Origin: Thermoanaerobaculia bacterium | Lineage (GTDB): Bacteria > Acidobacteriota > Thermoanaerobaculia > Multivoradales > Multivoraceae | Reading direction: 5' to 3' | DNA length: 64,000 nucleotides | Assembly: GCA_963666565.1 (NCBI GenBank) | Contig: OY762911.1 | Span: 4,160,001-4,224,000 of the forward strand | Shown: positions 4,224 through 29,590 of the stretch, in pieces | Numbering within the stretch: the first letter of the stretch is position 1 | How the letters are laid out: the number at the start of each line of letters is the position of its first letter | Program-made: the position numbers and the translations under genes | The notes under the pieces: model-generated | The model's database searches: none | The model's input: the letters and a program-made list of their open reading frames with translations, nothing else | Told to the model about the DNA's origin: nothing

Positions 4224-4652
4224 CTACCCATGCTCCGACCAGGGATTCAACATGGGCACGTTCATCAGCGAGAAGTCCCGTACGTTCCGCGTAACCACGG
4301 TCATCCCGTGCCGACGCGCCACCGCCGCGATCTGGGCGTCAACGACCGGAAGCGGCAGCCCCGCCTTGTCCCCGGCCGCCAGCATCTCGCCCCAGATGGT
4401 CGCCGCCTCCGCGTCGAAGGGCAGAATGCGACCCTTGAAGTCCCCCATCAGTTGACGTTCGATCCATGCCGCGTAGGCGCGACGCCTTGCTTCGTCCCGC
4501 AGCCTGCGCGCACCGCGGACGATCTCCCCGACCGTGATGACCGAGAGATAGAGATCCGTCGCCAGGCGCCCCGCCAACCAATCGACGACCTGCTGTGCGG
4601 GCCTCGGCTTGAACGTCTCGCTGAGGACGTTGGTGTCGAGCAGAAAAGTCAC
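4224..4652 (-). CDS. vapC: VapC-family PIN domain toxin
   Basis: FLLDTNVLSE ... DAQIAAVARRHGMTVVTRNVRDF. Confidence 0.92.
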   Translation of the reverse strand: MTFLLDTNVLSETFKPRPAQQVVDWLAGRLATDLYLSVITVGEIVRGARRLRDEARRRAYAAWIERQLMGDFKGRILPFDAEAATIWGEMLAAGDKAGLPLPVVDAQIAAVARRHGMTVVTRNVRDFSLMNVPMLNPWSEHG

Positions 4653-4972
4653 TCGAGGTCGACCGGGCGGCCCGTGGAGCGGTCGCGCTCAAACTCCAAC
4701 TCCTCCATGCCCTTTGGCAGGCTCGAACGCAAGGCGGCGATCAGATCCGCCCCAGTCCTGATCGGCGGCGCCGAAACGAGGTCGGCAAGCCGCCGCCGGA
4801 CCACCGCGCCCGCCCCGCCTCCTTCCCGGAGAGTTCGCCCGACCGCCCGGATCAGGTCCGCGTCCTCCGCCGGCACCGTCACTTCAACTCTCTTCGACCC
4901 CTCGGCCAGCACCCTCCTGCGATGCCGCCTCACTCGCTCCCTCGACGTTTCTCTCGTTGCAGGCTCAGCCAT
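4649..4972 (-). CDS. Putative antitoxin (107 aa), coupled to the PIN gene
   Basis: MAEPATRETSRERVRRHRRR...VEVTVP...LEFERDRSTGRPVDLE; GTGA overlap with vapC; upstream palindrome. Confidence 0.75.
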   Translation of the reverse strand: MAEPATRETSRERVRRHRRRVLAEGSKRVEVTVPAEDADLIRAVGRTLREGGGAGAVVRRRLADLVSAPPIRTGADLIAALRSSLPKGMEELEFERDRSTGRPVDLE

Positions 4973-4979
4973 GGCGTAG

Positions 4980-4999
4980 TCCCGGTAACGTTTCCGGGA
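4980..4999. promoter_or_regulatory. Near-perfect 20-bp palindrome, likely TA autoregulatory operator
   Basis: tcccggtaac/gtttccggga, between a TAGGTT -10-like hexamer and the antitoxin start. Confidence 0.55.
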
Positions 5000-5071
5000 A
5001 CCTAGCGCATCGCCTGCTCGAACGTCAATCCCGCCGGGAATCGCCAACGCGCCGGCGCATAGAGTCGGCAC

Positions 5072-6124
5072 ATGGCTGAACCGGTCGCCAAGCCTGCCAG
5101 ACGAGTTCCCCACGACCCTCGTCCGCCTCGGGCCGCCGACTTCCCCGGCTGCCGCGAGAAGACGATCCCGCGCGACGAGATCGAGGACTACGAGGGCCGC
5201 ATCGAGTACTGGGACGCCCGCAACGAAGCCGCATTCATCGCGGAGCCGACCACCACGTATCACGAGTACGGCGCCCGGCGCCTGACCCGTCTCGTGGCGC
5301 TGATCGGGATGCGGCGCGGGGCAGCGATCACGGTCGTGGGATCGGCCGACCTCGTGGTGCGCGACGGGCAGAGCCATCGCCGCGTCATCCAGGCCGACGA
5401 GAGCGTGTACCTGCGGACGGCGGACGCTCCCGAGGATCGGTGGATCGAAACCGGCGTCCACCGCCTCCCGGACGTCGTCCTGGAGGTCGACTACAGCACC
5501 GACGCGAGGCGCTACAAGCTCGGCGTCTACGAGTCCTGGGGCTTCCCGGAGGTCTGGATCGAAGTGCCCGACGCCGGTTGGCGCTACCGTCCGAAGAACC
5601 GAGGTTCGGCCCTCACGATTCACCTGCTGGAAGGCGGCTGCTACGTCGAGGCGCCGTCGAGCCGGGCGTTCCCGGGCTGGACCGCCGAGGAGATCCACCG
5701 GGCGCTGAACGAGACCGAGCCCTCCGCGGAGACCGTCGAGATCGCGCGCCGCGTGGCCGATGCCCTCGCCGCCGCCGGCGGCACGAGCCCCGACGACGAT
5801 CCCCTGCTGCGCCGGGAGCGCGCCGAGGGGCGGGAGAAGGGTCGCGCCGAGGGCCGGGCCGACGAGCGCCTCGACATCGTGCGAAGCGCAGTTCAGGACG
5901 CGTTCACCGCGCGCTCCCTTGCGATCACGCCCGGCCTGCGGTCCTGGCTCAACGAAGCGGATCCGGCGCTGGTCCCGGTCGAACTGATCCGTCTGGCCTG
6001 GGAGTGCCGCGACGCGGACGACTTCCTGAGCCGCGCGGCTGCCGCGCCGCGAGCGCGTAGCGGAGGCGGCCGAGGGTGGACTCGGGAGGAACTCTACGGG
6101 CGCGGCCGTGCGCGTACTGATTGA
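5072..6124 (+). CDS. Uma2/DUF820-family PD-(D/E)xK nuclease-like protein with C-terminal extension
   Basis: QADESVY, PDVVLEVDYST, KLGVYESWGFPEVW; EGREKGRAEG low-complexity tail. Confidence 0.8.
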   Translation: MAEPVAKPARRVPHDPRPPRAADFPGCREKTIPRDEIEDYEGRIEYWDARNEAAFIAEPTTTYHEYGARRLTRLVALIGMRRGAAITVVGSADLVVRDGQSHRRVIQADESVYLRTADAPEDRWIETGVHRLPDVVLEVDYSTDARRYKLGVYESWGFPEVWIEVPDAGWRYRPKNRGSALTIHLLEGGCYVEAPSSRAFPGWTAEEIHRALNETEPSAETVEIARRVADALAAAGGTSPDDDPLLRRERAEGREKGRAEGRADERLDIVRSAVQDAFTARSLAITPGLRSWLNEADPALVPVELIRLAWECRDADDFLSRAAAAPRARSGGGRGWTREELYGRGRARTD

Positions 6125-6330: not shown

Positions 6331-7146
6331 TCAGCGCGCGGCGCGAAGACCCGCCGGCAGGCCGCCGGTCGGGTTCGCGTTCTTGTAGAACCGGGACTCG
6401 AGCACGCGCATCCGGCGCTTGTAGAGGTCCTTCTGGTCGGCGGCGGTCAGGTCGAAGGCGCGCACGAAGAAGCGGCACTCGCGTTCCACCGTCCAGAGAT
6501 GCACGGGGAGGGTCTGCCGCAGAAACTCGGTCTCGGTGAGCAGTCGGCTCGCCTGGACCGCGCCGACCGGCAGTTGCCTGCGCGCGGCCTCGTGTTCGGG
6601 AGCGCGGGCGGGCGCCACGATGAAGCCGCCCGGCGCCAGCGCGATGTCGAACAGGTAGGCGACCGTGCCGTCCCGGTCGTACCAGCAGCTCGGGTGATCC
6701 GTGCCGCCGCCGCCCCGGGCGCGCTCCTGGACCTCCAGCCGCTCGATTCGCCGGTTGGCGCGGTCGAGTCGCTCGGCAAGCGCGGCGGCGCTCTTCTCGG
6801 ACTCCCGGAGCCGGTTCACGATCTCCGGCGCCGACGGCTCGGGAATCGTCGTCTCCATCTCGCGTACGAGTTCCCGCCAGTTGTCGGCGTCCCGGTGTTC
6901 GTCCACCCGCTCACGCAGCGCCGCCTTGAGCGCCACCGGGTCCTCCGGCAGCGCCTCCTCCTCGAACAGCGCGTCGATCCGCTCGAAGCGCACCAGTTCC
7001 TGTTCGGCCGCCTGCCGCCGGTCCGACTCGCGCGCGAGCAGGGCGGCCAGCGCGAGCAGAAGGACGAAGATGATCAGGATGGCGATCTCCGCCATCGTGA
7101 GGCCGAGGACCAGGCCGCGCGGGAACGTGCGGCCGCGCTCGCTCAC
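6331..7146 (-). CDS. Single-TM protein, MotB/ExbD/ZorB-like topology, with a Cys-containing C-terminal domain
   Basis: GTG start overlaps the upstream stop; TM LGLTMAEIAILIIFVLLLALAALL contains an acidic residue; coiled coil; DHPSCW...ECRFFV; no OmpA-like motif seen. Confidence 0.7.
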   Translation of the reverse strand: MSERGRTFPRGLVLGLTMAEIAILIIFVLLLALAALLARESDRRQAAEQELVRFERIDALFEEEALPEDPVALKAALRERVDEHRDADNWRELVREMETTIPEPSAPEIVNRLRESEKSAAALAERLDRANRRIERLEVQERARGGGGTDHPSCWYDRDGTVAYLFDIALAPGGFIVAPARAPEHEAARRQLPVGAVQASRLLTETEFLRQTLPVHLWTVERECRFFVRAFDLTAADQKDLYKRRMRVLESRFYKNANPTGGLPAGLRAAR

Positions 7147-8183
7147 CAGAAACCCCAACGCCGCAACTCGCGCCGACGGCCGCCCTCCTCCGCGACGGCG
7201 TCGAGCCGGTCCGCCATGCGCAGCAGCGACCGGTTCATCGCCTGCGAGAGGTGGCGGTTCTCTTCGAGGATCTCCGTCAACCGCGCCACCGCGCCCTGGT
7301 TCTGCTCGATGACCCGCAACTGGCTCGCCTCGAGGCGCCGCAGACCCTCCGCGACGGAAAGGAACTCCCGCGCCAGTTCCTGGAACCGCTCCGACGTCGG
7401 CCCAATCAACTCCTCGACGAACTCGCGCCGGAAGTCCACGGAACGGAAGTTCGCGAGCAGTTGCCGAAGGGAGTCGCTCACGGCCTCCGACTCGGAGACG
7501 AAGCGCTCCCGTTGAGCCTGGATGTCGCGGGCCGACGCGGCGGCGGCTTCGTCGACCTCGCCGACGCGCTGCCGGAGCGCCCCCAGCCGGGCGGCGCCGC
7601 TCTCCAGGTCTTCGATCCGCTCTTCCAGCGCGGCGCCCGCGGCGGTCACGCCCCGATCGAGTTGCTCGAACACCCGCTTCGCCTCCGCCCGAAACTGCTG
7701 GAACTCGTCGATCGAGTACTCCATCTCGGCACGCAGACGGCGGTTCGCGCGGGCCAGGTCCTCGCGCGCCCCCGCTTCCGCCCGTTCCTCGTCCTGCGGC
7801 TGGTTCAGGAGGATGCGTCCGGCCAGACCGAGGATCGTGCTGGTCAGGGCCAGACCGAAGTTCGTGACGATGGAGCTCGTCGCCCCTTCGGTGTTGAACT
7901 GGTACAGCGAGATGGCCAGCGAGATCAGCGTGTAGAGAAAGCCCAAGTAGTAGAGGTTGTCGCCCGCGAAGTCGTACCTGGGCCGCATCTCCGGCCACTC
8001 CACGAGCAGGCAGGCGTAGCTGCCCATCAGGACGATCGGCAGCAGCACGGCGAGAAGCGGGCTCGCCGTCAACGACTTCATCAGCAGGATGAGGAAGCCC
8101 CCGCCGGCGAAGAACGCCAGAAACAGCCCGCGGCCGCTCCCCGGCCCGGAATCCACCGACCGTTGCCGCGATGCGACGGACAT
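7143..8183 (-). CDS. Multi-TM protein resembling a MotA/TolQ/ExbB (ZorA-like) channel, with a long coiled-coil tail
   Basis: About 4 TMs including GDNLYYLGFLYTLISLAISL and NFGLALTSTILGLAGR, followed by ~220 aa of helical tail; TGATG coupling to the upstream gene. Confidence 0.7.
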   Translation of the reverse strand: MSVASRQRSVDSGPGSGRGLFLAFFAGGGFLILLMKSLTASPLLAVLLPIVLMGSYACLLVEWPEMRPRYDFAGDNLYYLGFLYTLISLAISLYQFNTEGATSSIVTNFGLALTSTILGLAGRILLNQPQDEERAEAGAREDLARANRRLRAEMEYSIDEFQQFRAEAKRVFEQLDRGVTAAGAALEERIEDLESGAARLGALRQRVGEVDEAAAASARDIQAQRERFVSESEAVSDSLRQLLANFRSVDFRREFVEELIGPTSERFQELAREFLSVAEGLRRLEASQLRVIEQNQGAVARLTEILEENRHLSQAMNRSLLRMADRLDAVAEEGGRRRELRRWGFW

Positions 8184-9025
8184 CAGTTGAGGCCGTCGAC
8201 GCGCACGACCCGAATCAGGGCGCCTCCCTGGTCCTCGATCCACCGCTGCCAGAAGTCGATCAGGCCGCGGGCGCCGTCCAGGCGGTCGTGGACCGCGCGC
8301 TGAACGAACAGGACCTCGACCGCGGTTCCCCGAAGGTCCGTGCGCAGCGCGGCGGCGCCGGTCGTCGCGGCGAAGGCGTCGTAGTCGACCGCCTGGCGGA
8401 AGAAGGAGAGGTTGCGCGTGTTCTGCATCAGGTCGGACACCAGGATCAGGCGTCTTGGAAGATCCGCGTACTCGTGCCGGCCGAGCACGGATACCGCCAC
8501 GCTCTGCACGCTCTCCATGAGCGGCGAAGTCGGCGCCGCCTCCCGGCCGAGCAAGTCGGCGAACAGGTCCTCGAGCGGCCGCTCGAACCGCTCCTCCAGC
8601 CGTCGCCGGATCAACCGCGGGTTCTCCGTCCACTCGCTGGCCTGGTCGGGATCGCCCGGATGGCAGACCGAGAGCAGCGGGGCTCCGATCTCGCTCCCGA
8701 CCGGCTTCGCCTCGAAGGCCAGGACCATCTCGTCCTCCCGGCTGCCGGCCACGTACTCGTCGAGGTGAGCGAGCACGTCGGCGCGGCTGATCGCGCCGAC
8801 CTGGTCCGTGACATCGACCAGGATCGCGGTCAGGGCCGCGGGCCCGGCCTCGGGACAGCCCGTCTCCGGGTCGCGATCCGGCGGCTTCGGAGCGAAGATC
8901 GTGAGGCGCGCGCCCACGACCAGGAGCAGCAGGGCGACGACCGCGATGCCGCCGCCGACCGCCAGATCCCGCGACGAGAGGTCGCCGCGCCGCGACCGAT
9001 GGCGCCGCCGCCTACGAGCCGCCAC
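8183..9025 (-). CDS. Membrane-anchored vWA-like domain protein
   Basis: N-terminal TM; AILVDVTD, TSPLMESV, LILVSDLMQN resemble MIDAS-type vWA motifs. Confidence 0.65.
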   Translation of the reverse strand: MAARRRRRHRSRRGDLSSRDLAVGGGIAVVALLLLVVGARLTIFAPKPPDRDPETGCPEAGPAALTAILVDVTDQVGAISRADVLAHLDEYVAGSREDEMVLAFEAKPVGSEIGAPLLSVCHPGDPDQASEWTENPRLIRRRLEERFERPLEDLFADLLGREAAPTSPLMESVQSVAVSVLGRHEYADLPRRLILVSDLMQNTRNLSFFRQAVDYDAFAATTGAAALRTDLRGTAVEVLFVQRAVHDRLDGARGLIDFWQRWIEDQGGALIRVVRVDGLN

Positions 9026-10400
9026 GACTTGCGGGAACGGCCGCCGGCGGGCGCTCGCGGGCCATCGAGCCCTGGAGGTCCAACCGCAACTGGGTCCGTT
9101 CCCACTCCCCGTGTACGCGTCCCAGCGCCGACTCGTACTGTTCGTTCAGCCCCTCCAGATCCACGTCTTCGACGGCGCCCGGCTCGCTGCGGCGCCGGTG
9201 CGGCGCCGGCGGATCCATCCTCCAGGGCCTGCCGTACGCCTCGGGCGTGCCGCGGTCGAAGCGCGCCGAGCGGTTCGCCTCCCGGTACTCCTCGATCAGC
9301 ATCGTCCCGAAGCGCTGCAACTGTTCGACATGAGAGTCGAACGCGGCCAGGAGCTTCGTCTCGCTCTCGGCCGCGCGCCGGCGTTCGACCGGCTGGCTCT
9401 TCGCCTCGTGCGCCGTGCGCCGGATCGCGTCCAGGCCGTCTTCGCGGATGGTGCGCAACTGCTCCACCACGTCCTGCCAGAGGTCGTCGTAGTCGGCCCG
9501 CGCGTCCTCCATCCTGCGGTGATTCCGGGAGTAGCCGGGGTAGGAGTCGCCGAAGAGCTTGCGGCCGTCGAAGAAGGCGACGCCGGAGAAGAAGAAGCCG
9601 AGCACGAAGAGCAGCCACGATTCGGCGTCCTGCAGGCCCAGCGGCGAAGCCTGGAAGCGGCTCAGCGCCTCGGCGCCGATGTTCTCGCTCAGGTCGGCCG
9701 AAGCGTCCCGGAAGTGCGCGAGTCCCAGGTTGAGGACGAATGCGGTCGCAAGCCACCCCAGGATCGCCAGCACTCCCACGGCCTTCAAGAGCACGCGGAT
9801 ATGGCTCACGAAACGGCTGACCGGACCGAAGAAAAGCGCCGGCAGCACCAGGTTCACGACGCTGAAGCCCAGCGCCAGACCCCAACCGCCCACCAGACCG
9901 CCCTCGCTGCCGACCGCCAGGAAGGCGCCGTTCAGCCCGCTCTCGACCACGAACAGCAGGACGATCAGGCCCACCAGCAACAGCGTCGTCCGCTGGCTCG
10001 CGTAGTCCGGCTCGCGGTCCAGCCGGTTGCGGTGCTTGAAGTCGAAGAAGTCCCTCCGCCTGCGCTCGAACTCGTGCAGGTTCGCCTTGAGCGCCTGCAG
10101 TTCGCTCTGTTCGACCTCCCTGAACTCGGTCTCGGCCTTGCGCGCCGACGACTCCAGGTCGCCGGCGAGCACCGCCCGGTCGAGCTGGTCCAGATGGCGG
10201 TCGACCTGCTCGAGCTGCTCGTCGCGGATCCGTACCGCGTCGTTCTTCTTCGCCTCGATGAACTCCTCGATCTCGGTCTGGCCGGGGTCGTCCGTTGCGT
10301 CGAGCGGCGGCATGCCGCGCTCTCCCGCCTGGCGTCCAAGCCGTTCCGGCTCGATCTCCGCCCGCAGATCCTCGATCAGCAGTTCCGGGAAGACCTTCAT
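9012..10400 (-). CDS. Hypothetical membrane protein (about 4 TMs flanked by coiled coils), 462 aa
   Basis: ATG 17 nt after the PQQ gene stop; FVVESGLNGAFLA, NLGLAHFRDA, GDSYPGYS; host-like codon usage. Confidence 0.75.
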   Translation of the reverse strand: MKVFPELLIEDLRAEIEPERLGRQAGERGMPPLDATDDPGQTEIEEFIEAKKNDAVRIRDEQLEQVDRHLDQLDRAVLAGDLESSARKAETEFREVEQSELQALKANLHEFERRRRDFFDFKHRNRLDREPDYASQRTTLLLVGLIVLLFVVESGLNGAFLAVGSEGGLVGGWGLALGFSVVNLVLPALFFGPVSRFVSHIRVLLKAVGVLAILGWLATAFVLNLGLAHFRDASADLSENIGAEALSRFQASPLGLQDAESWLLFVLGFFFSGVAFFDGRKLFGDSYPGYSRNHRRMEDARADYDDLWQDVVEQLRTIREDGLDAIRRTAHEAKSQPVERRRAAESETKLLAAFDSHVEQLQRFGTMLIEEYREANRSARFDRGTPEAYGRPWRMDPPAPHRRRSEPGAVEDVDLEGLNEQYESALGRVHGEWERTQLRLDLQGSMARERPPAAVPASRGGS

Positions 10401-10417: not shown

Positions 10418-12088
10418 CTACTCCGCCGGCAACGCGAACGTGAACAGCGCCCGGCCGGCGGCGATCGTCACGTGCTGCTGCCCGCCCGCCTCGTAGCTGA
10501 TCGGCGCCGCGACGACGTCGCCGCCGAGCCGCCGGTGCCAGAGTTCGTCGCCGGTTTCGGCGTCGAGGGCGTAGAAGATGCCGGCCACGCTGCCACCGAA
10601 GACCAGTCCGCCCTTCGTGGCCAGCAGGCCGGACCTGGACCGGGGCTGCACCTGGTACTGCCACTTCCTGTCGCCGGTCAGCGGATCGATCGCGCGCACC
10701 GCGCTGACGTACTGGTCTGCCGGCCCGGCCGGCTTGCCGTAACCGCCGACGAAGAGCTCACCCTCTTCGTACTCGGCCTCGGCCATGTAGTAACGCATTT
10801 CCGCGTCGTAGGCCTGGATATAGAACAGGCCGGTGTCGGGGCTGTAGGTGGGCGAGAACCAGTTCGCTGCGCCGCCGATCGTCGGCGCCACGAGGGTGCC
10901 CTCCTCGCTGGGGAACATGTTCGGCACCCGGATCGGCCGGCCGGTCTCCTGGTCGATCCCCTCGGCCCAGGTCTGCCGCGCGAACTCGCGCGCGAACAGG
11001 AACTCCCCGGTCTCGCGGTCCAGCAGATAGAAGAAGGCGTTCCGGTTGGCGAAGGCCATCAGCTTGCGCCGCTCGCCCCGGTACTCGGCGTCGAACAGGA
11101 TCGGCACCTGGCAGGCGTCCCAGTCGTGGACGTCGTGCGGCGTGAACTGGAAGGTCCAGACGATCTCGCCCGTGTCCGGGCGAATCGCCAGCACGGAATC
11201 CGAGTGCAGGTTGTCGCCCTCGCGGACCTCGCCGTTCCAGTCCGGCCCCGGATTGCCCGTTCCCCAGTAGAGGAGATCGAGTTCGGGGTCGTAGGAGCCG
11301 GTCATCCAGGTCGGCGCGCCGCCCGTCTTCCAGGAGTCGCCCTCCCAGGTCTCGTTGCCCGGTTCGCCCGGTCCGGGAATGGTCCAGGTGCGCCAGCGGA
11401 GTTCGCCGGTGTCCGCGTCGTAGGCGTCGAGGAAGCCCCGGATGCCGTACTCGCCGCCGCCTATCCCGGTGATCACGAGGTCGCGGACGACCATCGGCGC
11501 CGCCGTGATCGACTGCCCGGTGCGCGGGTCGCCCACTTCCGTGTCCCAGATCGGGGCGCCGGTCTTCGCATCCAGGGAGACGAGATGCGCGTCGATCGTG
11601 CCCATGTAGAGCCGGTCGCCGAGAACGGCCACGCCGCGGTTCTGCTTGCCGCAGCAGAGGGCGAGCTGGTCCGGCAGTTCGTGAGAGTAGGACCAGTACC
11701 GCCGGCCGGTGCGGGCATCGAGCGCGATGACGACGTTGTCCGGCGTCGTCGCGTACATCACCTCGTCGATCACGAGCGGCGTGGTTTCCAGGCGTCCGAG
11801 GGTCGGCATCTGGTACACCCAGCGAAGCTGGAGCTTCGCGGCGTTCGAGCGATCGATCTCGTCGAGGCGGCTGAAGCGCTGGCTGTTGTACTCGCCCGAG
11901 TACATGAGCCAGTTGGCCGGGTCGTCGGCCGCGGCCTTCAACTGTTCGTAGGAGACCCCGCCCTGAGCGGACAAGCTGGTGGCCGCAATCGTGAACGCCG
12001 CAAAGACGATGGCGCCGAGCGGCCTGTTCGGAGCCGGCGCTGCGCGCCGGATGCCGGCGGGGGCGCCGGCGTACCCAGTGTGTGTCAT
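10418..12088 (-). CDS. PQQ-dependent alcohol dehydrogenase family protein
   Basis: NWLMYSG, ETTPLV, vicinal LCCGKQNRG, GGGEYGIRG, GTGNPGP, TPHDVHDWDA; GGAGAG RBS before 12088 (alternative starts 12142 or 12148). Confidence 0.92.
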   Translation of the reverse strand: MTHTGYAGAPAGIRRAAPAPNRPLGAIVFAAFTIAATSLSAQGGVSYEQLKAAADDPANWLMYSGEYNSQRFSRLDEIDRSNAAKLQLRWVYQMPTLGRLETTPLVIDEVMYATTPDNVVIALDARTGRRYWSYSHELPDQLALCCGKQNRGVAVLGDRLYMGTIDAHLVSLDAKTGAPIWDTEVGDPRTGQSITAAPMVVRDLVITGIGGGEYGIRGFLDAYDADTGELRWRTWTIPGPGEPGNETWEGDSWKTGGAPTWMTGSYDPELDLLYWGTGNPGPDWNGEVREGDNLHSDSVLAIRPDTGEIVWTFQFTPHDVHDWDACQVPILFDAEYRGERRKLMAFANRNAFFYLLDRETGEFLFAREFARQTWAEGIDQETGRPIRVPNMFPSEEGTLVAPTIGGAANWFSPTYSPDTGLFYIQAYDAEMRYYMAEAEYEEGELFVGGYGKPAGPADQYVSAVRAIDPLTGDRKWQYQVQPRSRSGLLATKGGLVFGGSVAGIFYALDAETGDELWHRRLGGDVVAAPISYEAGGQQHVTIAAGRALFTFALPAE

Positions 12089-16024: not shown

Positions 16025-16200
16025 GGCATTCCCTCTTGTAGTATCCCACCTGTGACGAAACGGACGAGCATCGTGACAACACCGGCGGCGCCCTCTACCC
16101 TCTCGTCGAAACGTGAGTGGCATGCACGCGATTCTGTTCCAGTCCTAAGCGTCGCGACGGTGTCGCTGCTGGCACCGCTCGTGCCGAGTCGGGGCGCTGC

Positions 16201-17451
16201 ATGAGGATCGACTACCGCGACCCGCAGCACGAGCGGTTGCCGCACATCGTCCGGTTCTCGGGTGGCCGCTCGTCGGCCGCGATGACCTTCCTGCTGGCAG
16301 ATGCCGGCGTCCTGCAACCGGAGCGCGGCGACGTCGTGCTCTTCGCGAACACGTCCGCCGAACACCCGGGCACCTACACCTTCGCCGCCGAGTGCAAACA
16401 CCGGGTCGAGCAGGAGTATGGGATTCCGTTTCTCTGGTATGAGTTCTGCACCGTCGAGGACGCTTGGCGGGGCTCTTACCGAAGGAAGCTCTCCTACCGT
16501 CTGGTAGACGCCGTACCGGTCCAACGGGATGCCCAGCGCGGCTACCGCTCGAACGGCGAGGTCTTTGAGGAGCTCCTGTCGTTCCAAGGAATGCTGCCGA
16601 CGCCGATGTCGCGCTCCTGCACGTCGAAGCTGAAGCTCTACCCGCAGCACCTGTTGCTGGCCGAGTGGTTGGGGCCTGGCGACGGTCCGGCACACGACGG
16701 CCACCATGCGGAGCGGCCCTTCATGACCGCAGACGCGGCGATGCGCCTCTACCGCAAGAACCGCGGGAGCGCGAGCGAGGACAGCTACCGAGAGCGCGTC
16801 GCCTGCATGATCGGAAAGCCGCCGGCGCGGCAGAAACAGCGCTGGAGCGACTTCACGTCTCCTTCGTCCGACAGATGGGCAGCTAGGGAGTGGGCGCGAA
16901 ACCGTCCGCGGCTCGTCGAGCTCTGGGGGCGCAAGGCCGCCCGCTTCGTGACCCTACTGGGGCTGCGCGCGGACGAGCCCAGTCGCGTACGGCGAGTCGT
17001 GTCGCGATCTTTCTACGCCGAGGATGCGCCCAGGCGCCACTGCTCGGTGCGCACCCAACCGCCAGGCGAACGACCCTACTTCCCGCTCTTCGACGCGGGC
17101 TTCGGCACTGAGGACGTTCACGAGTACTGGAACGGCCGGAACTTCGACCTGGCCTGTCCATCCCATGCCGGCAACTGCGTCTTCTGCTTCATGAAGGGAA
17201 CGGAGCAGTTGGCGCGAGCATCCCAGCTCGAGGACTCGCTGCGCCAAGAGGGACGACCTTCGGACATTCGGTGGTGGGCGGCGATGGAGCGGAAGTACCG
17301 CCGCGAGGCGCCGAAGCGAAACGGCGAAGGCGTTTCCCGATTCGGTTTCTTGGGCGTATCCGGCCCGACCTACGAACAACTGGCGGCGGGCGACCCCGGT
17401 CGGCGAACCCGCTTCTCCGGCGGCGAGCCCGCCTGCGACTGCACGGACTGA
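16201..17451 (+). CDS. PAPS-reductase/PP-loop family, Cys-rich protein (DndC-like fold)
   Basis: VRFSGGRSSAAM, FANTSAEHP, RSCTSKLK, LGLRADEPSRV, GNCVFCFMK, C-terminal CDCTD. Confidence 0.8.
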   Translation: MRIDYRDPQHERLPHIVRFSGGRSSAAMTFLLADAGVLQPERGDVVLFANTSAEHPGTYTFAAECKHRVEQEYGIPFLWYEFCTVEDAWRGSYRRKLSYRLVDAVPVQRDAQRGYRSNGEVFEELLSFQGMLPTPMSRSCTSKLKLYPQHLLLAEWLGPGDGPAHDGHHAERPFMTADAAMRLYRKNRGSASEDSYRERVACMIGKPPARQKQRWSDFTSPSSDRWAAREWARNRPRLVELWGRKAARFVTLLGLRADEPSRVRRVVSRSFYAEDAPRRHCSVRTQPPGERPYFPLFDAGFGTEDVHEYWNGRNFDLACPSHAGNCVFCFMKGTEQLARASQLEDSLRQEGRPSDIRWWAAMERKYRREAPKRNGEGVSRFGFLGVSGPTYEQLAAGDPGRRTRFSGGEPACDCTD

Positions 17452-19389
17452 ATGGCGGATCTGCACTTCCCACGCACCTGGAAGTCCGAAGGGCTCTCGG
17501 TCCAGTCGATGGCCCAGCACGACGGTTCCGCCGACCCCGTTGTCCGCGAGCTGCTTCAGAACTGCCTGGACGCCGCGCGCAAGGCGGGCCGGGCGACCCG
17601 CGAAAGCCCCCTGCGGGTGGCCTTCTCGATCAACGAGTGGCAGGTCGACGACTTACCGGGCATTGCAGCGTATCGGCGCGCATTCGAGGCGGCACGGAGA
17701 GAGGAACCCGCCGACCGGGCGACTCCGGCCGCAGCGGAGGCGATCAGACGCATCCAGAAGGCTCTGGACCAGGAATGGACGAGAGTGCTGTTCTGCGCCG
17801 ACAACGGCCACGGTCTGAATCGGGACCGGATGCGCGCGATCCTGTCGGAGGCACGCGGCGACAAGGGCGGTGACCGGCAGCTCGCAGGCTCCTATGGCCT
17901 CGGTCATCTGACCGCCTTCTCCGCCTCTGATCTTCGCTACGTCCTCTACGGCGGCCTGTCGAGCGAGGGCCTCTGCGTAAGCGGTCACGCGATCCTGGCC
18001 TCTCACTTCGATACGGCCGCCGGCCTCCACCGCGCCGGCGAGGGCTTTTGGACTGACGATCCCGAACCCGATCTGCATTCGTGCGACTTCCCGAACGAGG
18101 TCCCGCCGCTGCTGGAAGTCGAGATGGAAGAGATCGCGAGCGAGGACGCAGGTGGTGCCGGCACCGTTGTCTGCATTACCGGCTTCAACCACTTCCGGGA
18201 GCACGACGAACAAGCCGCAGTGAACGAGATCCTCCGCGTGGCGGCCACTAACTTCGTCGCAGCCATCGCCCGGGGGGAAATGGAGTTGGAGGTTCTGGCG
18301 GAGTCGAACGATCTCGAAGAGCGCCTCGACCGGAGGACATTGCAGGACCGCCTCAAAGCCCACTCGGGCCAGCAGCGCAGCCGCCGCGGTTCGGGGGGCG
18401 GCTGGCTTCCCGGCGCGCAGGCGTTCGCGGCTTGGCGGACGCTCCAACAGGGACGGAGGCTGGACGAAACAGAAGCAGGGGTGGAAGTGCTTCTGCGGCC
18501 AGTGACGGACCAGCCCAGTGCCCGCGGCCGAGTCAACGTGTTTCGAAACGGCATGTGGATCACGAACAGCGCGCCGGAGCTTCAGCCTGGCAGCTTTGTC
18601 GGCGCAAGACCCTTCGACGCGGTAGTCCTGCTCGAAGAAGGCGATCTGTTCGACCTCGTTCGCGCTTCGGAAGGGCCCGAACACCGAGGGATCGACCTGA
18701 AGCGGCTGAGCAAGGCTAGGCGCCGTGCTCTCGTTGCTGACTTGAACCAACTCGCGCAACGCCTGCGAATGGCAGCCGGGGAAGCAGCGGCCGCCGACCG
18801 GTTCCGGCCTCCGGGTTTCGCCGTGTTCGAGGGCAGCGACCTGAGAAGGGCTGAGCGGTTGCGCCCCCTGAGGCATCGGACGAGCGATGGACAGGAAAAA
18901 CCCAGCGCGCCTAGCCCCGGACCTGGGAAAGGCCCCCAACCGGTTCCCGGCGAACCGAACCCCAGAAACCTAAAGCCGGGCCGCGCCTTGTCCATGCGAG
19001 CAGCTTGCCGCCCGCTGCTGAACGGAGACGGGCTGGTGGACCGGGTCGCCGTCGACCTTGAGGTTCGCGACAGTCGTCTAACCCAGGCGTCTGAGCTTGG
19101 CTTCCGATTGCGACAGGACTCGGGCTCCGATGCGTCCTGCGAACAACCGTTCCCGCCGGTCTGGCTGGACCTGAGATCGATCGAGATCGTGGACGCCGCA
19201 ACGGCTGCCGGAGGCTCGAGGGCGCCCATCGGCCCGTCGAACGGAAGCGTCAAGGAACTTTCCCTGCCGGTCGGTGTCTCCCGGGTCATCGTCAGTCTCG
19301 GCGAACCGCTCGCCGACACCCGTGGCCTTCAGGTGGACCTTGTCCACAGGAAGGCGGAACGAGTGACCGCTCCCCAGGGGAAGCCATGA
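17452..19389 (+). CDS. GHKL (HATPase_c/MORC-like) ATPase
   Basis: RELLQNCLDA, ADNGHGL, GSYGLGH, GTVVCI; ATG immediately follows the upstream TGA. Confidence 0.8.
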   Translation: MADLHFPRTWKSEGLSVQSMAQHDGSADPVVRELLQNCLDAARKAGRATRESPLRVAFSINEWQVDDLPGIAAYRRAFEAARREEPADRATPAAAEAIRRIQKALDQEWTRVLFCADNGHGLNRDRMRAILSEARGDKGGDRQLAGSYGLGHLTAFSASDLRYVLYGGLSSEGLCVSGHAILASHFDTAAGLHRAGEGFWTDDPEPDLHSCDFPNEVPPLLEVEMEEIASEDAGGAGTVVCITGFNHFREHDEQAAVNEILRVAATNFVAAIARGEMELEVLAESNDLEERLDRRTLQDRLKAHSGQQRSRRGSGGGWLPGAQAFAAWRTLQQGRRLDETEAGVEVLLRPVTDQPSARGRVNVFRNGMWITNSAPELQPGSFVGARPFDAVVLLEEGDLFDLVRASEGPEHRGIDLKRLSKARRRALVADLNQLAQRLRMAAGEAAAADRFRPPGFAVFEGSDLRRAERLRPLRHRTSDGQEKPSAPSPGPGKGPQPVPGEPNPRNLKPGRALSMRAACRPLLNGDGLVDRVAVDLEVRDSRLTQASELGFRLRQDSGSDASCEQPFPPVWLDLRSIEIVDAATAAGGSRAPIGPSNGSVKELSLPVGVSRVIVSLGEPLADTRGLQVDLVHRKAERVTAPQGKP

Positions 19390-20156
19390 TCCCCGTGCTG
19401 CGCCAGGACGGTTCGAGTCTGGACTGGAAGTCCGCCACGTACCATGTGGACGTAGAGGCGAACGGCACTGGTGCGGTCGTCACTCACGAACTGAGAGACG
19501 CACCGGAGTTGGTCAGGCTGATCGAAGACGGTGCCGCCGCCTATGCCGTGGAAGCGCGCTGCCCTAGGACGCTCTTCGCCCGAACGTGGCTGAGCCGCAA
19601 GCAGCGGCTGGAAGTGGACTGGCGCGAGACCGACGTGGACGGCCAAGTCTTCCTGTTCCCCGGCGTAGTGGCCCTGAAGGAGACGTCCTTGGCGACCGCC
19701 GGCCTTATCGAACTATGGGAAGAAGATCAGGTCCGCGTGCCATTGGGCGCATGGCTCGCACGCGGCGCCGAGTTCGCCGCCAAGAATCTCGCCGCGTCGC
19801 TGATCGAGTTTCGCAAGGACGAGTCGCTTCAGTCGGGACGAATGAGGGTGGTCGAGGACACTAGCGGCGACGATGCCCGTTTCCTGGTCAAGCTCGCCCC
19901 AGAGTTGTACCAACGCGCAACGCAAGGGGACCGGGATGTCCAGGTGGCCGGGCTAATCGCCGCGTTCGCCAAGCTGCCGGACTCTCCACGCTTCGCTGAG
20001 GACTCGGCTAGTCCGGTCGCACGGATGCTCCGGGATCGGCTCGAGAGCGCGGAAGTTCCGACTTGGGACGACGGTTACGACTGGGATCCGGCTTGGGCCG
20101 CGACCACGATCGAGAAGTTCTACCCGGCGACCGCCGAAGACGAGACAGCGCCTTGA
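19386..20156 (+). CDS. Hypothetical protein (256 aa) in the modification operon
   Basis: ATGA overlap; globular, beta-rich N-half (AYAVEARCPRTLFAR). Confidence 0.75.
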   Translation: MIPVLRQDGSSLDWKSATYHVDVEANGTGAVVTHELRDAPELVRLIEDGAAAYAVEARCPRTLFARTWLSRKQRLEVDWRETDVDGQVFLFPGVVALKETSLATAGLIELWEEDQVRVPLGAWLARGAEFAAKNLAASLIEFRKDESLQSGRMRVVEDTSGDDARFLVKLAPELYQRATQGDRDVQVAGLIAAFAKLPDSPRFAEDSASPVARMLRDRLESAEVPTWDDGYDWDPAWAATTIEKFYPATAEDETAP

Positions 20157-21142
20157 CACTGGAAACGAACGGTTTCCCTGCCGGCGAGGCAAAGTCGGCA
20201 TCCAGTCTCGCCGACGAGAGTCTTCGGGACCGCTACGGCCAGTGGGTGGCGGAGCTGATCTGGGTTGCGCGGGCCGAACGGCACCGGAACGATGCCGAAC
20301 GGGAACGCCGGCATCGCCATGTAACCCAGCGCCAACGCGAACTGCGCCGAGCGATCGGGGACGGGCCGAACACGGCCGCTGCGTGGCTTCGAACACAACT
20401 AGGGCTGGAGGAATCGGGAGCGCTCCTGATCGAAGCGCCGCAGCTGCCCCGGCCACTGACGGCCGACGAGTTCATCGAGCCGCCGTTCGAACTGGAGCTA
20501 GAGATCGGTCAAGCGCTTTCGGCCGAGATCACTACGCGAGACGCCGCCCGTCCCTGGTTCTGGCTGCTCTGCCACATCGCGTGGCTCGAACGGGGCGACA
20601 TCGCAGACAACGTTCGAAGGGCCTTCTGCTGGAGCAGCGCCGCCGCCGGCAAGTCGGACGAAACCGACCAGTTGGAGGCGGAAACCCGCAACTTCCTGCG
20701 CCGTACCGGCGGAATCGAGATGGTCCGAGGCAAGGTATCCGTACTCAGCGACTGTCCGCTCGCCCGGGCTTGGTGGCGTTACCGTCTTGCCCACAACGCG
20801 GCTCACACTGCAGGTGACGGAAAGGTCCTGAACGCCGCGGATGCCCACCGGTGCCTCCATCACAGCGGCCCGATCTGGGAGGAACTCGTTCGCCTGGGAG
20901 TGAAACGCCTGACCGTCGTCAACCACGACCGGGCCCGCGCCGCCGTTGTCGCGGCACTCGCCCAGGTCGTCTCAAGGGCAGCGCCCGATGGCAAGATCGA
21001 GTGGGGGACCCAGCACATTGCGCGAGCGGCCAAGGAACTCGGGCGGGAAGCGCTTGTCCGGTCGTTAGGACAAATCGAGTGGTCCGAGCTGTGCGGCATC
21101 GTGGAGAACGCGACCCCGGGGCCCGAGGGAGCCGCGTCTTGA
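20153..21142 (+). CDS. Hypothetical protein (329 aa), possibly DUF6339-like
   Basis: TTGA overlap; DAARPWFWLLCH and CPLARAWWRY motifs; family assignment is from memory only. Confidence 0.7.
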   Translation: MTLETNGFPAGEAKSASSLADESLRDRYGQWVAELIWVARAERHRNDAERERRHRHVTQRQRELRRAIGDGPNTAAAWLRTQLGLEESGALLIEAPQLPRPLTADEFIEPPFELELEIGQALSAEITTRDAARPWFWLLCHIAWLERGDIADNVRRAFCWSSAAAGKSDETDQLEAETRNFLRRTGGIEMVRGKVSVLSDCPLARAWWRYRLAHNAAHTAGDGKVLNAADAHRCLHHSGPIWEELVRLGVKRLTVVNHDRARAAVVAALAQVVSRAAPDGKIEWGTQHIARAAKELGREALVRSLGQIEWSELCGIVENATPGPEGAAS

Positions 21143-23241
21143 CCACCGCCCTCACTCTCCCGTCCTCACCGCCAACCCCCGGCAACCCTTGGGGCGTCGC
21201 CCGCACACCGCTCGTGCCCGGTGCCTATCGGCGCCGATACGGTGACAGCACGGCAGCTCGCGACCTGCGGAACGCGGTCGCCAATCCGAACCTGACGCTC
21301 CACGACTTGGGCGCGCGCTTCTGGGACAAAGCGCCTTGGTCGACCGTGCCTCGGAGGGCTTTCAAGAGCCTCCGCCTCCAGCTCGCGCGATTCCGGGTAC
21401 CCTCGGACGTCGAAGTGCTGGTCGCGGGTACGCGCACCGAGCACCTGTTGGCTCTGCCTCTCGGTACCCGCGCCCACAACTTCATCAGGATCGCCGGGCA
21501 GGAGGAAGCGGTCGAAGGTCGACTGCGGCGGACCCTAACGGCTGGCGACGTGCTGGCGTATCGGAATGCGGGCGTCATGGTACTGCTCGAACTGCTCGCG
21601 GTCGTCGAAGGTCATCGATTAGCGCAACGGCCGGCCTCGGAAGCGGGCGTTGACCGGCCAGCCGCTGAACAGAGCGAGCCATCGGACGACAGCGCAATCC
21701 TCTTGCCAAAGAGATTGATAGACCTGCTGGCGGTCGCTCGCGAGTTCCGCAGCGCCACAACTCTGAAGGAAGCGCTCGAACTCGATGGCAGCTCTCTTGC
21801 CGAGCGAACCGGCCTCGCGGCTGAACTGGACGCAGTGAGCCTCGACGACCTAGGGATCGGCGAGGGCATGACTCACGCAGCCGGTCTGCTCGCGGAGACC
21901 GAGGCCTTGGATTCGGAACTGACCCAGCATGAGGAGACGATCCTCCAACGTCGGCTCTTCCGCCGGCGGCCGGCCACACTTGCGGCGCTCGGCAAGCTAC
22001 AGGGGATCACAAGAGAGCGTGTCCGCCAGATCGAGTCCAAGCTGAAGAGGCGACTCGAGAGCCGCCTCGGGCGACGCGTCGGAATCGTAGCCGGTGCAGT
22101 AGCAGAACGGATCGCACCGATCTCCCGGCCCGAGGAGATCGACCGACAGATCGGAGCAGTCTTCGAAGGCCGAGATCATCCTTCGGTCCCACTCGCTTGC
22201 CGGATGCTCCGCAGCCGGCTGGGCTACCGCGCCAAAGGCGAACTGGAACTGAACGAGGACGCCTCCAAGGCAGTGACCGAGCTTCGCAGCTTCGCTCGCG
22301 AGCAGCAGGACGACGCCGGTCTGCTTGACGAGGACACGCTTCAGTCCCGGCTGGCTGACCTGTCCTGGGCGGAACACTGGGAACTGCTTGTCGAGACTTG
22401 CGGCTTTCACCGGATCGACGGCCTCCTGGGACTCCGCAACACGAAGAAGGCGCGGGTCAAGGCCGCCGTCCTGAACATCGGCCGGATCGCTTCCAGGGAA
22501 GAGATCGCGGCCAGATGCGGCCTCTCCCGGCAACGCACCGTCAGTTACCTCTCGGCACTGCCGTCTGTCGCTCGGGCAGATCGAACGCGTTGGGGCCTCA
22601 CCGAGTGGATCGACGATGTGTACGAAGGCGTCGCGAACGAGATCCTGCAGCGGATCGACGAGGACGGCGGCGCTACCCGTGTCGAACGCGTGCTCGACGA
22701 ACTGCCGCGACTGTTCGGCGCGACCGAGGCGACGGTCCGAGCGTACCTAGCAGCACCGCAGTTCGAGGTTCGGAGCGGCTGGGTTCGCCGGGCCGACCCA
22801 TCGGCAGTGCGACTCCGCCCGCTCGACGACGCGATCGACGGGCGGGACGAGCTCGGAAGGCCGTGCTGGAGCTTTCAAGTGAAGGCGGACTACTTCAAGG
22901 GTTACAGCTTGGCGGGCCTGCCGCCGGAGATCGCCCGTGAGCTGGGTTGCCCTCCGAACGGACGCACTGAAGTACGCCTTGTCGAGCCGTCGGACTGCCG
23001 CCCATTGAGCCTGACCTGGCGGCTCACTTCGTTGACGGGTCCCAATCTCGGCTACTTGTCCACGCCGCTGGAGCGCCTGGGAGCCAAGGCTGGCGACCGC
23101 GTGCAGCTCATCCTGCGCGGCAACGGCTCGGTCGAACTCCGCCGGAACGGTCGACGGGTGTCGCCTAGCGATCCAGGCGCCCCGCCCAAGCCTGCCGAGG
23201 AAATTCTCGAACGCCTCAAGCAAAGGCGCCAAGTGCTGTAG
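21139..23241 (+). CDS. Multi-domain DNA-binding protein: RNAP alpha-CTD-like, sigma-70 region 4 HTH and winged HTH
   Basis: LPLGTRAHNF...TAGDVLAYRNAG; TLAALGKLQGITRERVRQIE; ARADRTRWGLTEW; TTGA overlap. Confidence 0.78.
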   Translation: MTTALTLPSSPPTPGNPWGVARTPLVPGAYRRRYGDSTAARDLRNAVANPNLTLHDLGARFWDKAPWSTVPRRAFKSLRLQLARFRVPSDVEVLVAGTRTEHLLALPLGTRAHNFIRIAGQEEAVEGRLRRTLTAGDVLAYRNAGVMVLLELLAVVEGHRLAQRPASEAGVDRPAAEQSEPSDDSAILLPKRLIDLLAVAREFRSATTLKEALELDGSSLAERTGLAAELDAVSLDDLGIGEGMTHAAGLLAETEALDSELTQHEETILQRRLFRRRPATLAALGKLQGITRERVRQIESKLKRRLESRLGRRVGIVAGAVAERIAPISRPEEIDRQIGAVFEGRDHPSVPLACRMLRSRLGYRAKGELELNEDASKAVTELRSFAREQQDDAGLLDEDTLQSRLADLSWAEHWELLVETCGFHRIDGLLGLRNTKKARVKAAVLNIGRIASREEIAARCGLSRQRTVSYLSALPSVARADRTRWGLTEWIDDVYEGVANEILQRIDEDGGATRVERVLDELPRLFGATEATVRAYLAAPQFEVRSGWVRRADPSAVRLRPLDDAIDGRDELGRPCWSFQVKADYFKGYSLAGLPPEIARELGCPPNGRTEVRLVEPSDCRPLSLTWRLTSLTGPNLGYLSTPLERLGAKAGDRVQLILRGNGSVELRRNGRRVSPSDPGAPPKPAEEILERLKQRRQVL

Positions 23242-23259
23242 GCCGACCGGAGACGAACT

Positions 23260-25521
23260 GTGCTTGCTGACGAAGCGACGCTCGAACCGCGGCTTTATCG
23301 CCTGCCCGACGATCCTGTGGCGGATCGCGTGTTGATCCCCGGATTCCGTTCGGCGACATCGGTTCGGGGCGCGTTCGGTTGGTTCGGCGCCGGCTGGATT
23401 CGCCAACTTGCGCCGGGGCTTGCCCACTACCTGAACCGAGAAAGCCCGCAGCCGATCGAATTCACCGTGGCCCCCCTTCACTACGAACCGGAACTGGCAG
23501 CGATGAGAGCAGCCCAGACAATGTCGGCGAAACAGGCGACGGAGCGAGTGGCGCACCTATTCGTCAACGGTCGCGTCGACCGGTCCGCACTGGGCCGCCA
23601 CGCTCTGGACTGCTTGGCTTGGATGCTCACCTGTGACCTCCTCCGCCTGCAGGTCGCGGTGCCGGAATCCGATTCGAACTTCCACCCCAAGATGTGGCTC
23701 TTCTCCGACGGGGACGGTCGAGTGCTGGCCCGCGGCTCAGGCAACGCCACGGGTATGGGTGTTGCGTCAGGTATCGAGCAGATGGACGTTGACGTCTCCT
23801 GGATCAAGGAGAGCCGCCAGCGCGTGTTGCAGGGCGAGCGCATCCTTTGCGACTGGTCCAGCGCGCGTGGGGCCGGTATCGTGGAAGTGGTCCCTCTTCC
23901 AGAGGCGCTAAAGCGGAAGATCATCCGTGTGGCGCCGTCATCGGCACCAAGCCCCGACGACTACCTAGTGGCGGCCGCCGAAGACGGAAGCCCGCGGTGG
24001 GCGGTGGACGCCTGGCAACAACTGGACGCCCGCCTCCGCAGCGTTCGTGGCCGCGGATCGGCGCCCCGACTCGAGATTCCGGCGTGGCTCGAATGGGAGA
24101 CTGGCCACTACGGCCACCAGAAGGAAGCCGTGGATGCCTGGGAGGCAGAGCCGGAACCCGAACGCGGCACGCTCGCCATGGCGACGGGAGCGGGCAAGAC
24201 GTTGACGGCCCTGATCTGCGCTGCCCGGGCGCAGGACCGGCTGCCCGGCGGCTCGGCCTTCGCCGTGGTCGTCGCGGCGCCCTCCCGGCCCCTCCTGCTG
24301 CAGTGGAAGGAAGAGGTGTCGAAGTTCGGCGTCGCCGCAGAAACGCCAACCTTCTCTTCCGACACGGCCGCCTCCCTGACTAACTTCCTGCGCGGGCTGG
24401 ACGGTGATGGCACCCGGGTTGCGGTTGTGACCAACAACCTGCTCTGCACGTCGTCGTTCCAACGAACACTCGAATCGGGACTGCGCGGACGACCGTCGCT
24501 GCTGATCGCCGACGAAGCGCATCGGCTTGGCGCGGAAGGGTTCATCCGCCAGACGCCAAACTTCTTTGAACGGCGCTTGGCCCTTTCCGCCACACCGGTA
24601 CGCCAGTACGACCCGGATGGGACCGAACGGATCTTCGAGTTCTTCGGCCCACCCGTCTACGAGTTTGGTCTGGACCGGGCTATAGGCTTCTGTCTGGTCC
24701 CGTACGACTACCATGTTCACGCCGCAACACTGGACGAAGAGGAGACGGACGAGTTCACGCAACTGACCCGCAAGATCGGCGCGGCAATGGCCGGTGCCGA
24801 GGATCGAAAACCGAGCGACCGCGAACGAGAAGCCCTGAACGGGTTGCTGCTGAAGCGCCGGCGAATCATCGAGGCGGCGGAGGCGAAGATCCCGCTGCTC
24901 CAGGCCGTGCTGGAGCGCCGCGGACCGCGAAGGATCGAGCAGGCGCTGGTCTACGCATCCGCCAAGAAGCGGGACCAGTTCGAACGCATCGGCCAGGTAC
25001 TAACGCAACTCGGGATTCGCTGGGCACCGGTTACGCAAGAGGAGACAGCCCAACGGTCGAAGCTCGAAGGAACGTTGGAGGCGTTCCGCACGGGCGGCCT
25101 CCAAGTGCTCCTGGCGAAGAAGGTTCTCGACGAAGGCGTCGACATTCCGTCGATCCGCGAGGCGTACATCGTCGCCTCATCCACGGTCGAACGCGAGTGG
25201 GTGCAGCGCCGCGGTCGAGTGCTTCGCCGCCATCCCGGAAAGGAGTGTGCGGTCGTGCACGACTTCCTCGCCCTGCCGGTGGCGAGCACCGTCCGAGGGG
25301 GCGACCAACCGCTCAAACGGCTGGTACGGAGGGAACTGGAGCGAGCGCTCGCCTTCGCCGGATACGCTCGAAACGCCGCCGGCTCCGCAGGTGCGCTCGC
25401 CTGGATTGAGCGAATCCGCGAGACGTTCTGGCCAAGTCGGCGCCAGCGCTACGACCAACTCGCCGAAACGCCAAGCTACCAGAGAATCGCGCCAACGCTC
25501 GAGGGGAGAGACGCGAGATGA
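23260..25521 (+). CDS. PLD(HKD)-nuclease plus SF2 DEAH helicase (similar to dnd-associated restriction helicases)
   Basis: FHPKMWLFSD...GSGNAT; HQKEAV, ATGAGKT, DEAH, LSATP, LDEGVDIP, QRRGRVLR. Confidence 0.9.
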   Translation: MLADEATLEPRLYRLPDDPVADRVLIPGFRSATSVRGAFGWFGAGWIRQLAPGLAHYLNRESPQPIEFTVAPLHYEPELAAMRAAQTMSAKQATERVAHLFVNGRVDRSALGRHALDCLAWMLTCDLLRLQVAVPESDSNFHPKMWLFSDGDGRVLARGSGNATGMGVASGIEQMDVDVSWIKESRQRVLQGERILCDWSSARGAGIVEVVPLPEALKRKIIRVAPSSAPSPDDYLVAAAEDGSPRWAVDAWQQLDARLRSVRGRGSAPRLEIPAWLEWETGHYGHQKEAVDAWEAEPEPERGTLAMATGAGKTLTALICAARAQDRLPGGSAFAVVVAAPSRPLLLQWKEEVSKFGVAAETPTFSSDTAASLTNFLRGLDGDGTRVAVVTNNLLCTSSFQRTLESGLRGRPSLLIADEAHRLGAEGFIRQTPNFFERRLALSATPVRQYDPDGTERIFEFFGPPVYEFGLDRAIGFCLVPYDYHVHAATLDEEETDEFTQLTRKIGAAMAGAEDRKPSDREREALNGLLLKRRRIIEAAEAKIPLLQAVLERRGPRRIEQALVYASAKKRDQFERIGQVLTQLGIRWAPVTQEETAQRSKLEGTLEAFRTGGLQVLLAKKVLDEGVDIPSIREAYIVASSTVEREWVQRRGRVLRRHPGKECAVVHDFLALPVASTVRGGDQPLKRLVRRELERALAFAGYARNAAGSAGALAWIERIRETFWPSRRQRYDQLAETPSYQRIAPTLEGRDAR

Positions 25522-25751
25522 ACAATATCGACCGAGTGGCCGCGGAGATCCGCCAGCGCGCCGCACAGGAGTCGGTTGACGGACTGAGTGCGGACGAACT
25601 GGTCACCTTCCTGCTGGAAGTCGTGAACGTCGAGGATCTCCACCTTCGGCGTCCCCGGAACGTGCAGAAGGAGGTCGACACCATGGTGCGCGCATTGGCC
25701 CGGCGATTGGCCCCAAAGAACCCAACTCCGACCGGAGACAGCGGATGCTGA
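25518..25751 (+). CDS. Small helical protein (77 aa) between the helicase and the ATPase
   Basis: ATGA overlap upstream and 7-nt overlap downstream; same position as small partners of DndD/CxC-type ATPases. Confidence 0.7.
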   Translation: MNNIDRVAAEIRQRAAQESVDGLSADELVTFLLEVVNVEDLHLRRPRNVQKEVDTMVRALARRLAPKNPTPTGDSGC

Positions 25752-27994: not shown

Positions 27995-28012
27995 GGAACG
28001 GAGGAGCGACCC

Positions 28013-29339: not shown

Positions 29340-29340
29340 C

Positions 29341-29541: not shown

Positions 29542-29590
29542 GACTGCGTGGCCCCGCCACCTCGGCGACAGCCGCCACCATCCGCATCGC

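What the first reader, a model, noticed from the sequence alone, without database searches (positions are those of the whole stretch)
6331..10400. Uncharacterised four-gene MotAB/ZorAB-like membrane motor with a vWA partner
Seen: four overlapping genes encoding a 4-TM coiled-coil protein, a TM-anchored vWA-like protein, a MotA/ExbB-like protein (LGFLYTLISL; FGLALTSTILG) with a ~220-aa helical tail, and a single-TM protein with Glu (MAEIAILIIF) where MotB/ExbD/ZorB carry the ion-binding Asp, ending in a Cys-containing non-OmpA domain. Known: 5:2 ion motors power flagella, Ton/Tol, gliding and Zorya, and a long tail is a ZorA trait. No ZorC/D/E, TonB or flagellar genes are adjacent. Inference: an undescribed ion-driven envelope machine for defence sensing, adhesion or export. 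It follows the PQQ dehydrogenase by only 17 nt and is bordered on the other side by Uma2/TA genes.
Basis: partly seen in the sequence, partly recalled or inferred. Interest (0 to 1): 0.75.

Follow-up and report, generated by a model that had tools for sequence, protein, structure and literature searches.

The report
Zorya-like ion motor with swappable heads
Four unnamed genes that stay together in scattered bacteria of several phyla likely build an ion-driven membrane motor, related to the Ton/Tol and Zorya motors, whose axle protein carries different outer heads in different species, and which would act with two membrane partners, possibly as an anti-phage envelope sensor.

The parts
9012..10400 (-). 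Gene A, 462 aa: N-terminal coiled coil, 4 TM helices (about window 9570-9992) with invariant polar residues (E153, N157, N183, N224, H229, R231, S261, W262), DxYPGY motif, C-terminal helical region with invariant Y372/N376/R380/P386; no known family
   Evidence: (invariant in 27 rows)
8183..9025 (-). Gene B, 280 aa: Arg-rich N-terminus, one TM, vWA domain with MIDAS-like D71-x-T/S73-D74, S/T167, D198 and a conserved Cys pair (C57, C121)
   Evidence: hhalign to 25 VWA_2 domains E 4.6e-4, score 30.4 vs max 16.7 in 100 shuffles; D71 57/57
7143..8183 (-). Gene C, 346 aa: 4 predicted TM helices, then a ~220-aa helical tail; predicted ring subunit (ExbB/TolQ/MotA/ZorA-like)
7812..7961 (-). C TM3-TM4 hairpin with invariant D75, Y78, G81, T85, F109, T116, G119, R123; T85 and T116 align with the two ring Thr of ExbB/TolQ/MotA
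   Evidence: (77/77 rows)
6331..7146 (-). Gene D, 271 aa (GTG start): single TM, helical stalk of variable length, disulfide-type head; predicted axle subunit
7087..7089 (-). Codon of D Glu20, at the position of the MotB/ExbD/ZorB Asp (T-M-A-E vs T-F-A-D in MotB of locus L131); Asp in the divergent member L182
6367..6711 (-). D head (residues ~146-260), predicted ExbD/TolR periplasmic fold with conserved C154/C224; replaced by OmpA or OmpA+SNase heads in relatives
10418..12052 (-). Neighbour, not part of the system: PQQ dehydrogenase, upstream in this genus only
4224..6124 (.). Neighbours, not part of the system: PIN toxin (4224-4652, -) and Uma2 gene (5072-6124, +) in a variable stretch downstream

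Best explanation
The four genes form one conserved operon; C and D likely assemble as an ion-driven ring-and-axle motor of the ExbBD/TolQR/ZorAB kind, predicted to work with the membrane pair A-B, probably as an envelope sensor against phages. Steps: (1, shown) the genes travel together and D's TM carries an invariant acid. (2, inferred from motifs and head folds) five C subunits ring two D helices, and T85/T116 of C face Glu20 of D; C's invariant D75 is a second candidate ion site. (3, predicted) D's stalk lifts a head into the periplasm that anchors the axle: ExbD/TolR-like here, peptidoglycan-binding OmpA/ZorB-like in other lineages. (4, inferred) B's vWA domain binds a periplasmic ligand through a metal ion, and A, with polar residues in its membrane helices and long cytoplasmic coils, is the output that C's tail or TM1-2 engages. 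(5, least certain) envelope disturbance by a phage engages the head, ion flow turns the ring, and A-B respond, taking the place of Zorya's soluble ZorC/D/E.
Confidence: 0.45

Rival explanations
1. Same motor, but a non-defence envelope machine (Ton/Tol/Agl-like force transducer): B's vWA head grips an outer-membrane or host ligand and the motor pulls on it, for adhesion, envelope upkeep or uptake.
For: ExbD/TolR-type head; near-fixation and a stable site in this genus; vWA proteins beside tolQR-like genes are predicted force transducers (PMC12204202, section 8 passages); many flanks are housekeeping genes.
Against: B has no TonB/TolA-type His in its TM and no long linker. No TonB, TPR or outer-membrane partner is conserved. 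The range is patchy, with broken copies (L057, L064, L068, L074). ZorB-like and nuclease heads fit this reading poorly.
Confidence: 0.27
2. A DNA gate: the motor positions or drives periplasmic nucleases to destroy or process incoming DNA (phage, conjugative or free), with A as the membrane conduit.
For: SNase is fused to D in L166 and L174, which lie apart on the B tree. Exported-type nucleases lie directly beside the operon in L169 (SNase), L095 (endonuclease I) and L172 (PLD). An SNase gene lies downstream, on the opposite strand, in 26 of 33 loci of this genus. An A+B pair abuts a type IV coupling protein in L185.
Against: The window's own genome has no SNase by the session profile. SNase also occurs in 1/20 control stretches. 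Most loci have no nuclease, and these genes are common on mobile DNA.
Confidence: 0.13
3. Not a rotary motor: C and D are a motor-derived or merely similar static channel or scaffold that supports A-B.
For: No structural match of C to motor rings in three searches; Glu in place of Asp; no cytoplasmic motor domain in C; A+B stand alone in 7/24 loci.
Against: Invariance of exactly the ring Thr pair and the axle acid across very distant members, and three separate heads all typical of motor axles.
Confidence: 0.15

Closest known systems
Zorya ZorA5B2 motor (PMC11946911, PMC11890865; passages read)
   Same: Ring subunit with two hydroxyl residues facing an axle acid, plus a long C-terminal helical tail; no plug after the axle TM in the D model; some relatives carry a ZorB-like OmpA head; some copies lie among defence genes.
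   Different: Glu instead of Asp26; 4 TM and no membrane-proximal cytoplasmic domain in C; ExbD/TolR-like head in this copy; no ZorC/D/E-type genes in flanks; extra membrane partners A and B; below all PADLOC/NCBIfam Zorya cut-offs.
ExbB-ExbD and TolQ-TolR
   Same: TM3-TM4 motif register with ExbB/TolQ; periplasmic head fold like TolR/ExbD.
   Different: A 100-300-aa helical stalk under the head; Cys pair; long cytoplasmic tail on C; Glu; no TonB/TolA partner; the genome has its own ordinary ExbB/TolQ and ExbD/TolR genes elsewhere.
vWA force transducers beside tolQR-like genes, and TPH-vWA motors (PMC12204202, section 8 passages)
   Same: A membrane-tethered vWA protein encoded with a TolQ-like ring.
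   Different: There the vWA protein either has an SHLS helix and a long linker (with a TPR gene and two tolR genes) or is itself the Asp-bearing axle. Here B has neither feature, a separate axle D exists, and a 4-TM partner A is obligatory.
Flagellar MotA-MotB / PomA-PomB
   Same: Four TM helices in the ring subunit; T-x-A-acid pattern in the axle; OmpA heads in relatives, auto-annotated 'MotB'.
   Different: No torque-generating cytoplasmic domain (defined in PMC12505986, passages); no plug; no flagellar genes adjacent; no MotB_plug hit.
GldL-GldM (PMC8986121, passages)
   Same: Uses glutamates; the ring subunit has a cytoplasmic domain after its TMs.
   Different: The working Glu is in the ring (GldL E49), and GldM E31 was dispensable. 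No family hit to GldL/M.

Membership tests
Zorya (types I-III) | ZorA: TM ring with Thr/Ser filter and a long helical tail | tested here: inconclusive
   T85/T116 invariant and a 220-aa tail; ZorA2 model E 0.012 only; tail hits to ZorA rank behind generic helical proteins; fold searches list no ZorA
Zorya (types I-III) | ZorB: TM Asp | tested here: not met
   Glu in 148/148 rows; Asp only in the divergent L182 (105)
Zorya (types I-III) | ZorB: OmpA-like peptidoglycan-binding domain | tested here: not met
   Window D head matches TolR/ExbD; met only in relatives
Zorya (types I-III) | Adjacent soluble effectors (ZorC/D, ZorE, ZorF/G) | tested here: not met
   Window neighbours are a PQQ dehydrogenase, Uma2 and PIN; no Zor hit among 132 and 133 flanking proteins; no conserved fifth gene (57)
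Zorya (types I-III) | Anti-phage activity | not testable with these tools
   Only a non-significant neighbourhood trend
ExbBD / TolQR | Pfam MotA_ExbB and ExbD domains above cut-off | tested here: not met
   family searches of the genome find other genes, not C or D
ExbBD / TolQR | Ring helices with two conserved Thr | tested here: met
   Register alignment; 1/200 shuffles reach the score; E 0.005. Weak but position-exact
ExbBD / TolQR | ExbD/TolR periplasmic fold | tested here: met
ExbBD / TolQR | TonB/TolA partner with an SHLS helix | tested here: not met
   No His in B's TM in the window or conserved in 31 rows; no such gene conserved in flanks
5:2 ion-driven motors (superfamily) | Pentamer:dimer assembly and ion-driven rotation | not testable with these tools
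MotAB / PomAB | Torque-generating cytoplasmic domain, plug and OmpA domain | tested here: not met
   Only ~10 residues between C TM2 and TM3 (25); continuous helix after D's TM, and a non-OmpA head
vWA domain | Rossmann-type vWA fold with MIDAS residues | tested here: met
   hhalign E 4.6e-4, 0/100 shuffles; D71 57/57, T/S73 57/57, S/T167 57/57, D198 55/57; the second MIDAS Ser is not conserved. No structure model was made
vWA transducers / TPH-vWA (PMC12204202) | vWA protein with an SHLS helix and ~100-aa linker, or with the axle Asp | tested here: not met
   B has ~25 residues between TM and vWA and no acid or His in its TM

The most novel reading that the evidence does not exclude
A fourth branch of Zorya-like immunity: a glutamate-based 5:2 motor with exchangeable periplasmic heads (TolR-like, ZorB-like, or nuclease-tipped) that drives a membrane effector (A) and a vWA sensor (B) and destroys or blocks phage DNA at the envelope, without any soluble effector.
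Probability: 0.25. Interest if true: 0.9.

Novelty: new variant of a known kind. Interest (0 to 1): 0.68.

Why it matters
The axle family alone has 1,034 clusters at 50% identity (E<=1e-10), yet no curated family names any of the four proteins. One axle helix carrying TolR-like, OmpA/ZorB-like or nuclease-fused heads links the Ton/Tol and Mot/Zor branches of 5:2 motors within a single operon type. It also offers a natural test of whether Glu can replace the 'universally conserved' Asp. If defensive, it would be a Zorya-like sensor wired to membrane outputs. Relatives occur in cultured bacteria: Methylobacter luteus (L097) carries the operon, and Bradyrhizobium diazoefficiens and Labrys monachus carry D-family proteins, so it can be tested.

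Full report
OBSERVATION. Four minus-strand ORFs fill 6331-10400 and overlap end to start: A (462 aa), B (280), C (346) and D (271, GTG start at 7146). Each is single-copy in the genome. None reaches a Pfam, NCBIfam or PADLOC cut-off; C gives weak hits on its TM hairpin to ZorA2 (E 0.012) and exbB2 (E 0.023). The closest titled relatives are Ca. Multivorans / Thermoanaerobaculia genomes, so the host likely belongs there.

CONSERVATION AND RANGE. D has 1,034 cluster representatives at E<=1e-10. The loci scan found 257 relatives and kept the best 80. Of these 80, 74 have A-B-C-D in order (7 with one split gene), 2 are cut by contig ends and 4 are decayed. They come from Acidobacteriota, Latescibacterota, Alpha- and Gammaproteobacteria, one Spartobacteria bin and one Dehalococcoidia bin. 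No fifth gene is shared across lineages; the PQQ dehydrogenase, cytochrome and ABC neighbours recur only in this genus. Presence: 33 of 36 genomes of the genus and 0 of 24 from other families of the order; 3 of 295 other Acidobacteriota; 23 of 400 Alphaproteobacteria; 18 of 150 in the Bradyrhizobium genus; 3 of 399 in Methylobacter's class (few candidates scored per genome, so a floor). To avoid selecting on D, I fetched all 24 alphaproteobacterial B matches. Fifteen have the full operon (one with D cut short next to an integrase-type gene), 7 have A+B only, 1 has B only and 1 ends at a contig edge.

GENE C. The model (pLDDT 72, pTM 0.37) shows four N-terminal helices, then a tail. D75, Y78, G81, T85, F109, T116, G119 and R123 are invariant in 77 rows. 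Against 27 ExbB/TolQ/MotA proteins taken from session genomes, hhalign places G81-T85 on the G-L-x-G-T motif and A112-T116-G119 on the A-L-x-x-T-x-x-G motif. The score of 18.6 is reached by 0 of 40 and 1 of 200 column shuffles, and E is 0.005 with the deeper alignment. These are the two ring hydroxyls that face the axle acid in ZorAB (Thr147/Ser184; PMC11946911, passages). Against this, three fold searches listed only generic helical bundles, C lacks the cytoplasmic domain found before the ring helices in known motors, and its tail matches ZorA tails only behind generic helical proteins.

GENES A AND B. B aligns to 25 VWA_2 domains at E 4.6e-4, above all 100 shuffles, and keeps D71, T/S73, D74, S/T167 and D198. 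Its basic N-terminus and Cys pair suggest a periplasmic domain (inference). It has no TonB-type His helix or long linker, unlike the vWA transducers of PMC12204202 (abstract, outline and section 8 passages read). A has four TM helices with invariant polar residues, and conserved cytoplasmic coils; it has no family, PDB or named Atlas match. C-D almost never occur without A-B, while A-B occur alone, so A-B looks like the working core and C-D its energiser (inference).

FUNCTION. I scanned up to three genes on each side of 23 loci from the first set (one per lineage or site outside this genus), 16 full-operon loci of the second set, and 20 control stretches from 20 of the operon-bearing genomes. 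After dropping hits to housekeeping homologues in both sets, defence-type neighbours were 14 of 39 against 3 of 20 (p 0.08), 10 of 39 by a strict list (p 0.28), and 4 of 16 in the unbiased set (p 0.37). Adding the A+B-only loci gives 18 of 46 (p 0.046). Loci are not fully independent, and my gene calls are heuristic. Single cases are striking: inside a type III-A CRISPR operon (L171), beside type I RM (L168), near an OLD nuclease (L170), and in a viral contig (L135). Against defence: near-fixation in this genus at a housekeeping site, and no plasmid or phage match. Exported-type nucleases are fused or adjacent in several lineages, but the session's SNase profile finds none in the window's genome.

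MECHANISM AND VERDICT. I put about 0.8 on C-D being a 5:2-type ion motor and about 0.45 on the whole reading that it drives A-B as a Zorya-like envelope sensor. Rivals: a Ton/Tol-like envelope or adhesion transducer (0.27), a DNA gate (0.13) and a static scaffold (0.15). Which acid conducts ions is open: in GldLM the ring Glu matters and the axle Glu does not (PMC8986121, passages), and C has its own invariant D75. It works like ZorAB/ExbBD but fails membership of Zorya, ExbBD/TolQR, MotAB and the published vWA motors. Searches found no description; passages of a stator phylogeny (PMC12505986) mention neither vWA nor glutamate. Supplements were not read. The scan had noted the same four-gene row in another genome (e1-4974199). 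The head fold, head exchange, A+B-only loci and CRISPR embedding go beyond that note as shown to me. Notes on TPH-vWA operons concern a different architecture. Novelty: new variant of a known kind; interest 0.68.

Noticed in passing
window 16117-34100: Lower-GC island about 6 kb from the operon: PAPS-reductase/SspD-like gene, HATPase gene and next gene matching PADLOC PDC-M33A/B, then ORFs that look by eye like a helicase, a DndD-like ATPase, a PIN pair and restriction-modification remnants.
   Followed up: partly
L171:6970-17911: The four-gene operon lies co-oriented inside a type III-A CRISPR-Cas operon, between cas6 and a CARF (Csx1-like) gene followed by cas10 and csm3.
   Followed up: partly
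L166:11338-12804, L174:2504-4723: D proteins ending in OmpA plus staphylococcal-nuclease domains; the L174 OmpA head is close to type II ZorB.
   Followed up: yes
L175, L176, L183, L184, L185, L187, L188: A+B pairs without C and D; four of seven lie near restriction-modification genes, and L185 abuts a type IV coupling protein and a resolvase.
   Followed up: partly
L097, L071, L075: B proteins of Methylobacter, a Spartobacteria bin and a Dehalococcoidia bin are close on the tree: transfer or binning error.
   Followed up: no
window 7143-7805 and 6712-7035: The window's C tail is about 50 aa shorter than in its closest relatives (346 vs ~397 aa), and D length in close relatives ranges from about 250 to 450 aa, mostly in the stalk.
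   Followed up: partly
L057, L064, L068, L074, L048; G026, G028: Decayed, frameshifted or interrupted copies of the operon; it was not found in 3 genomes of this genus that are 94-97% complete.
   Followed up: partly
G000 genome: At least 21 VWA_2 matches above cut-off elsewhere in the genome, unrelated to this locus.
   Followed up: no
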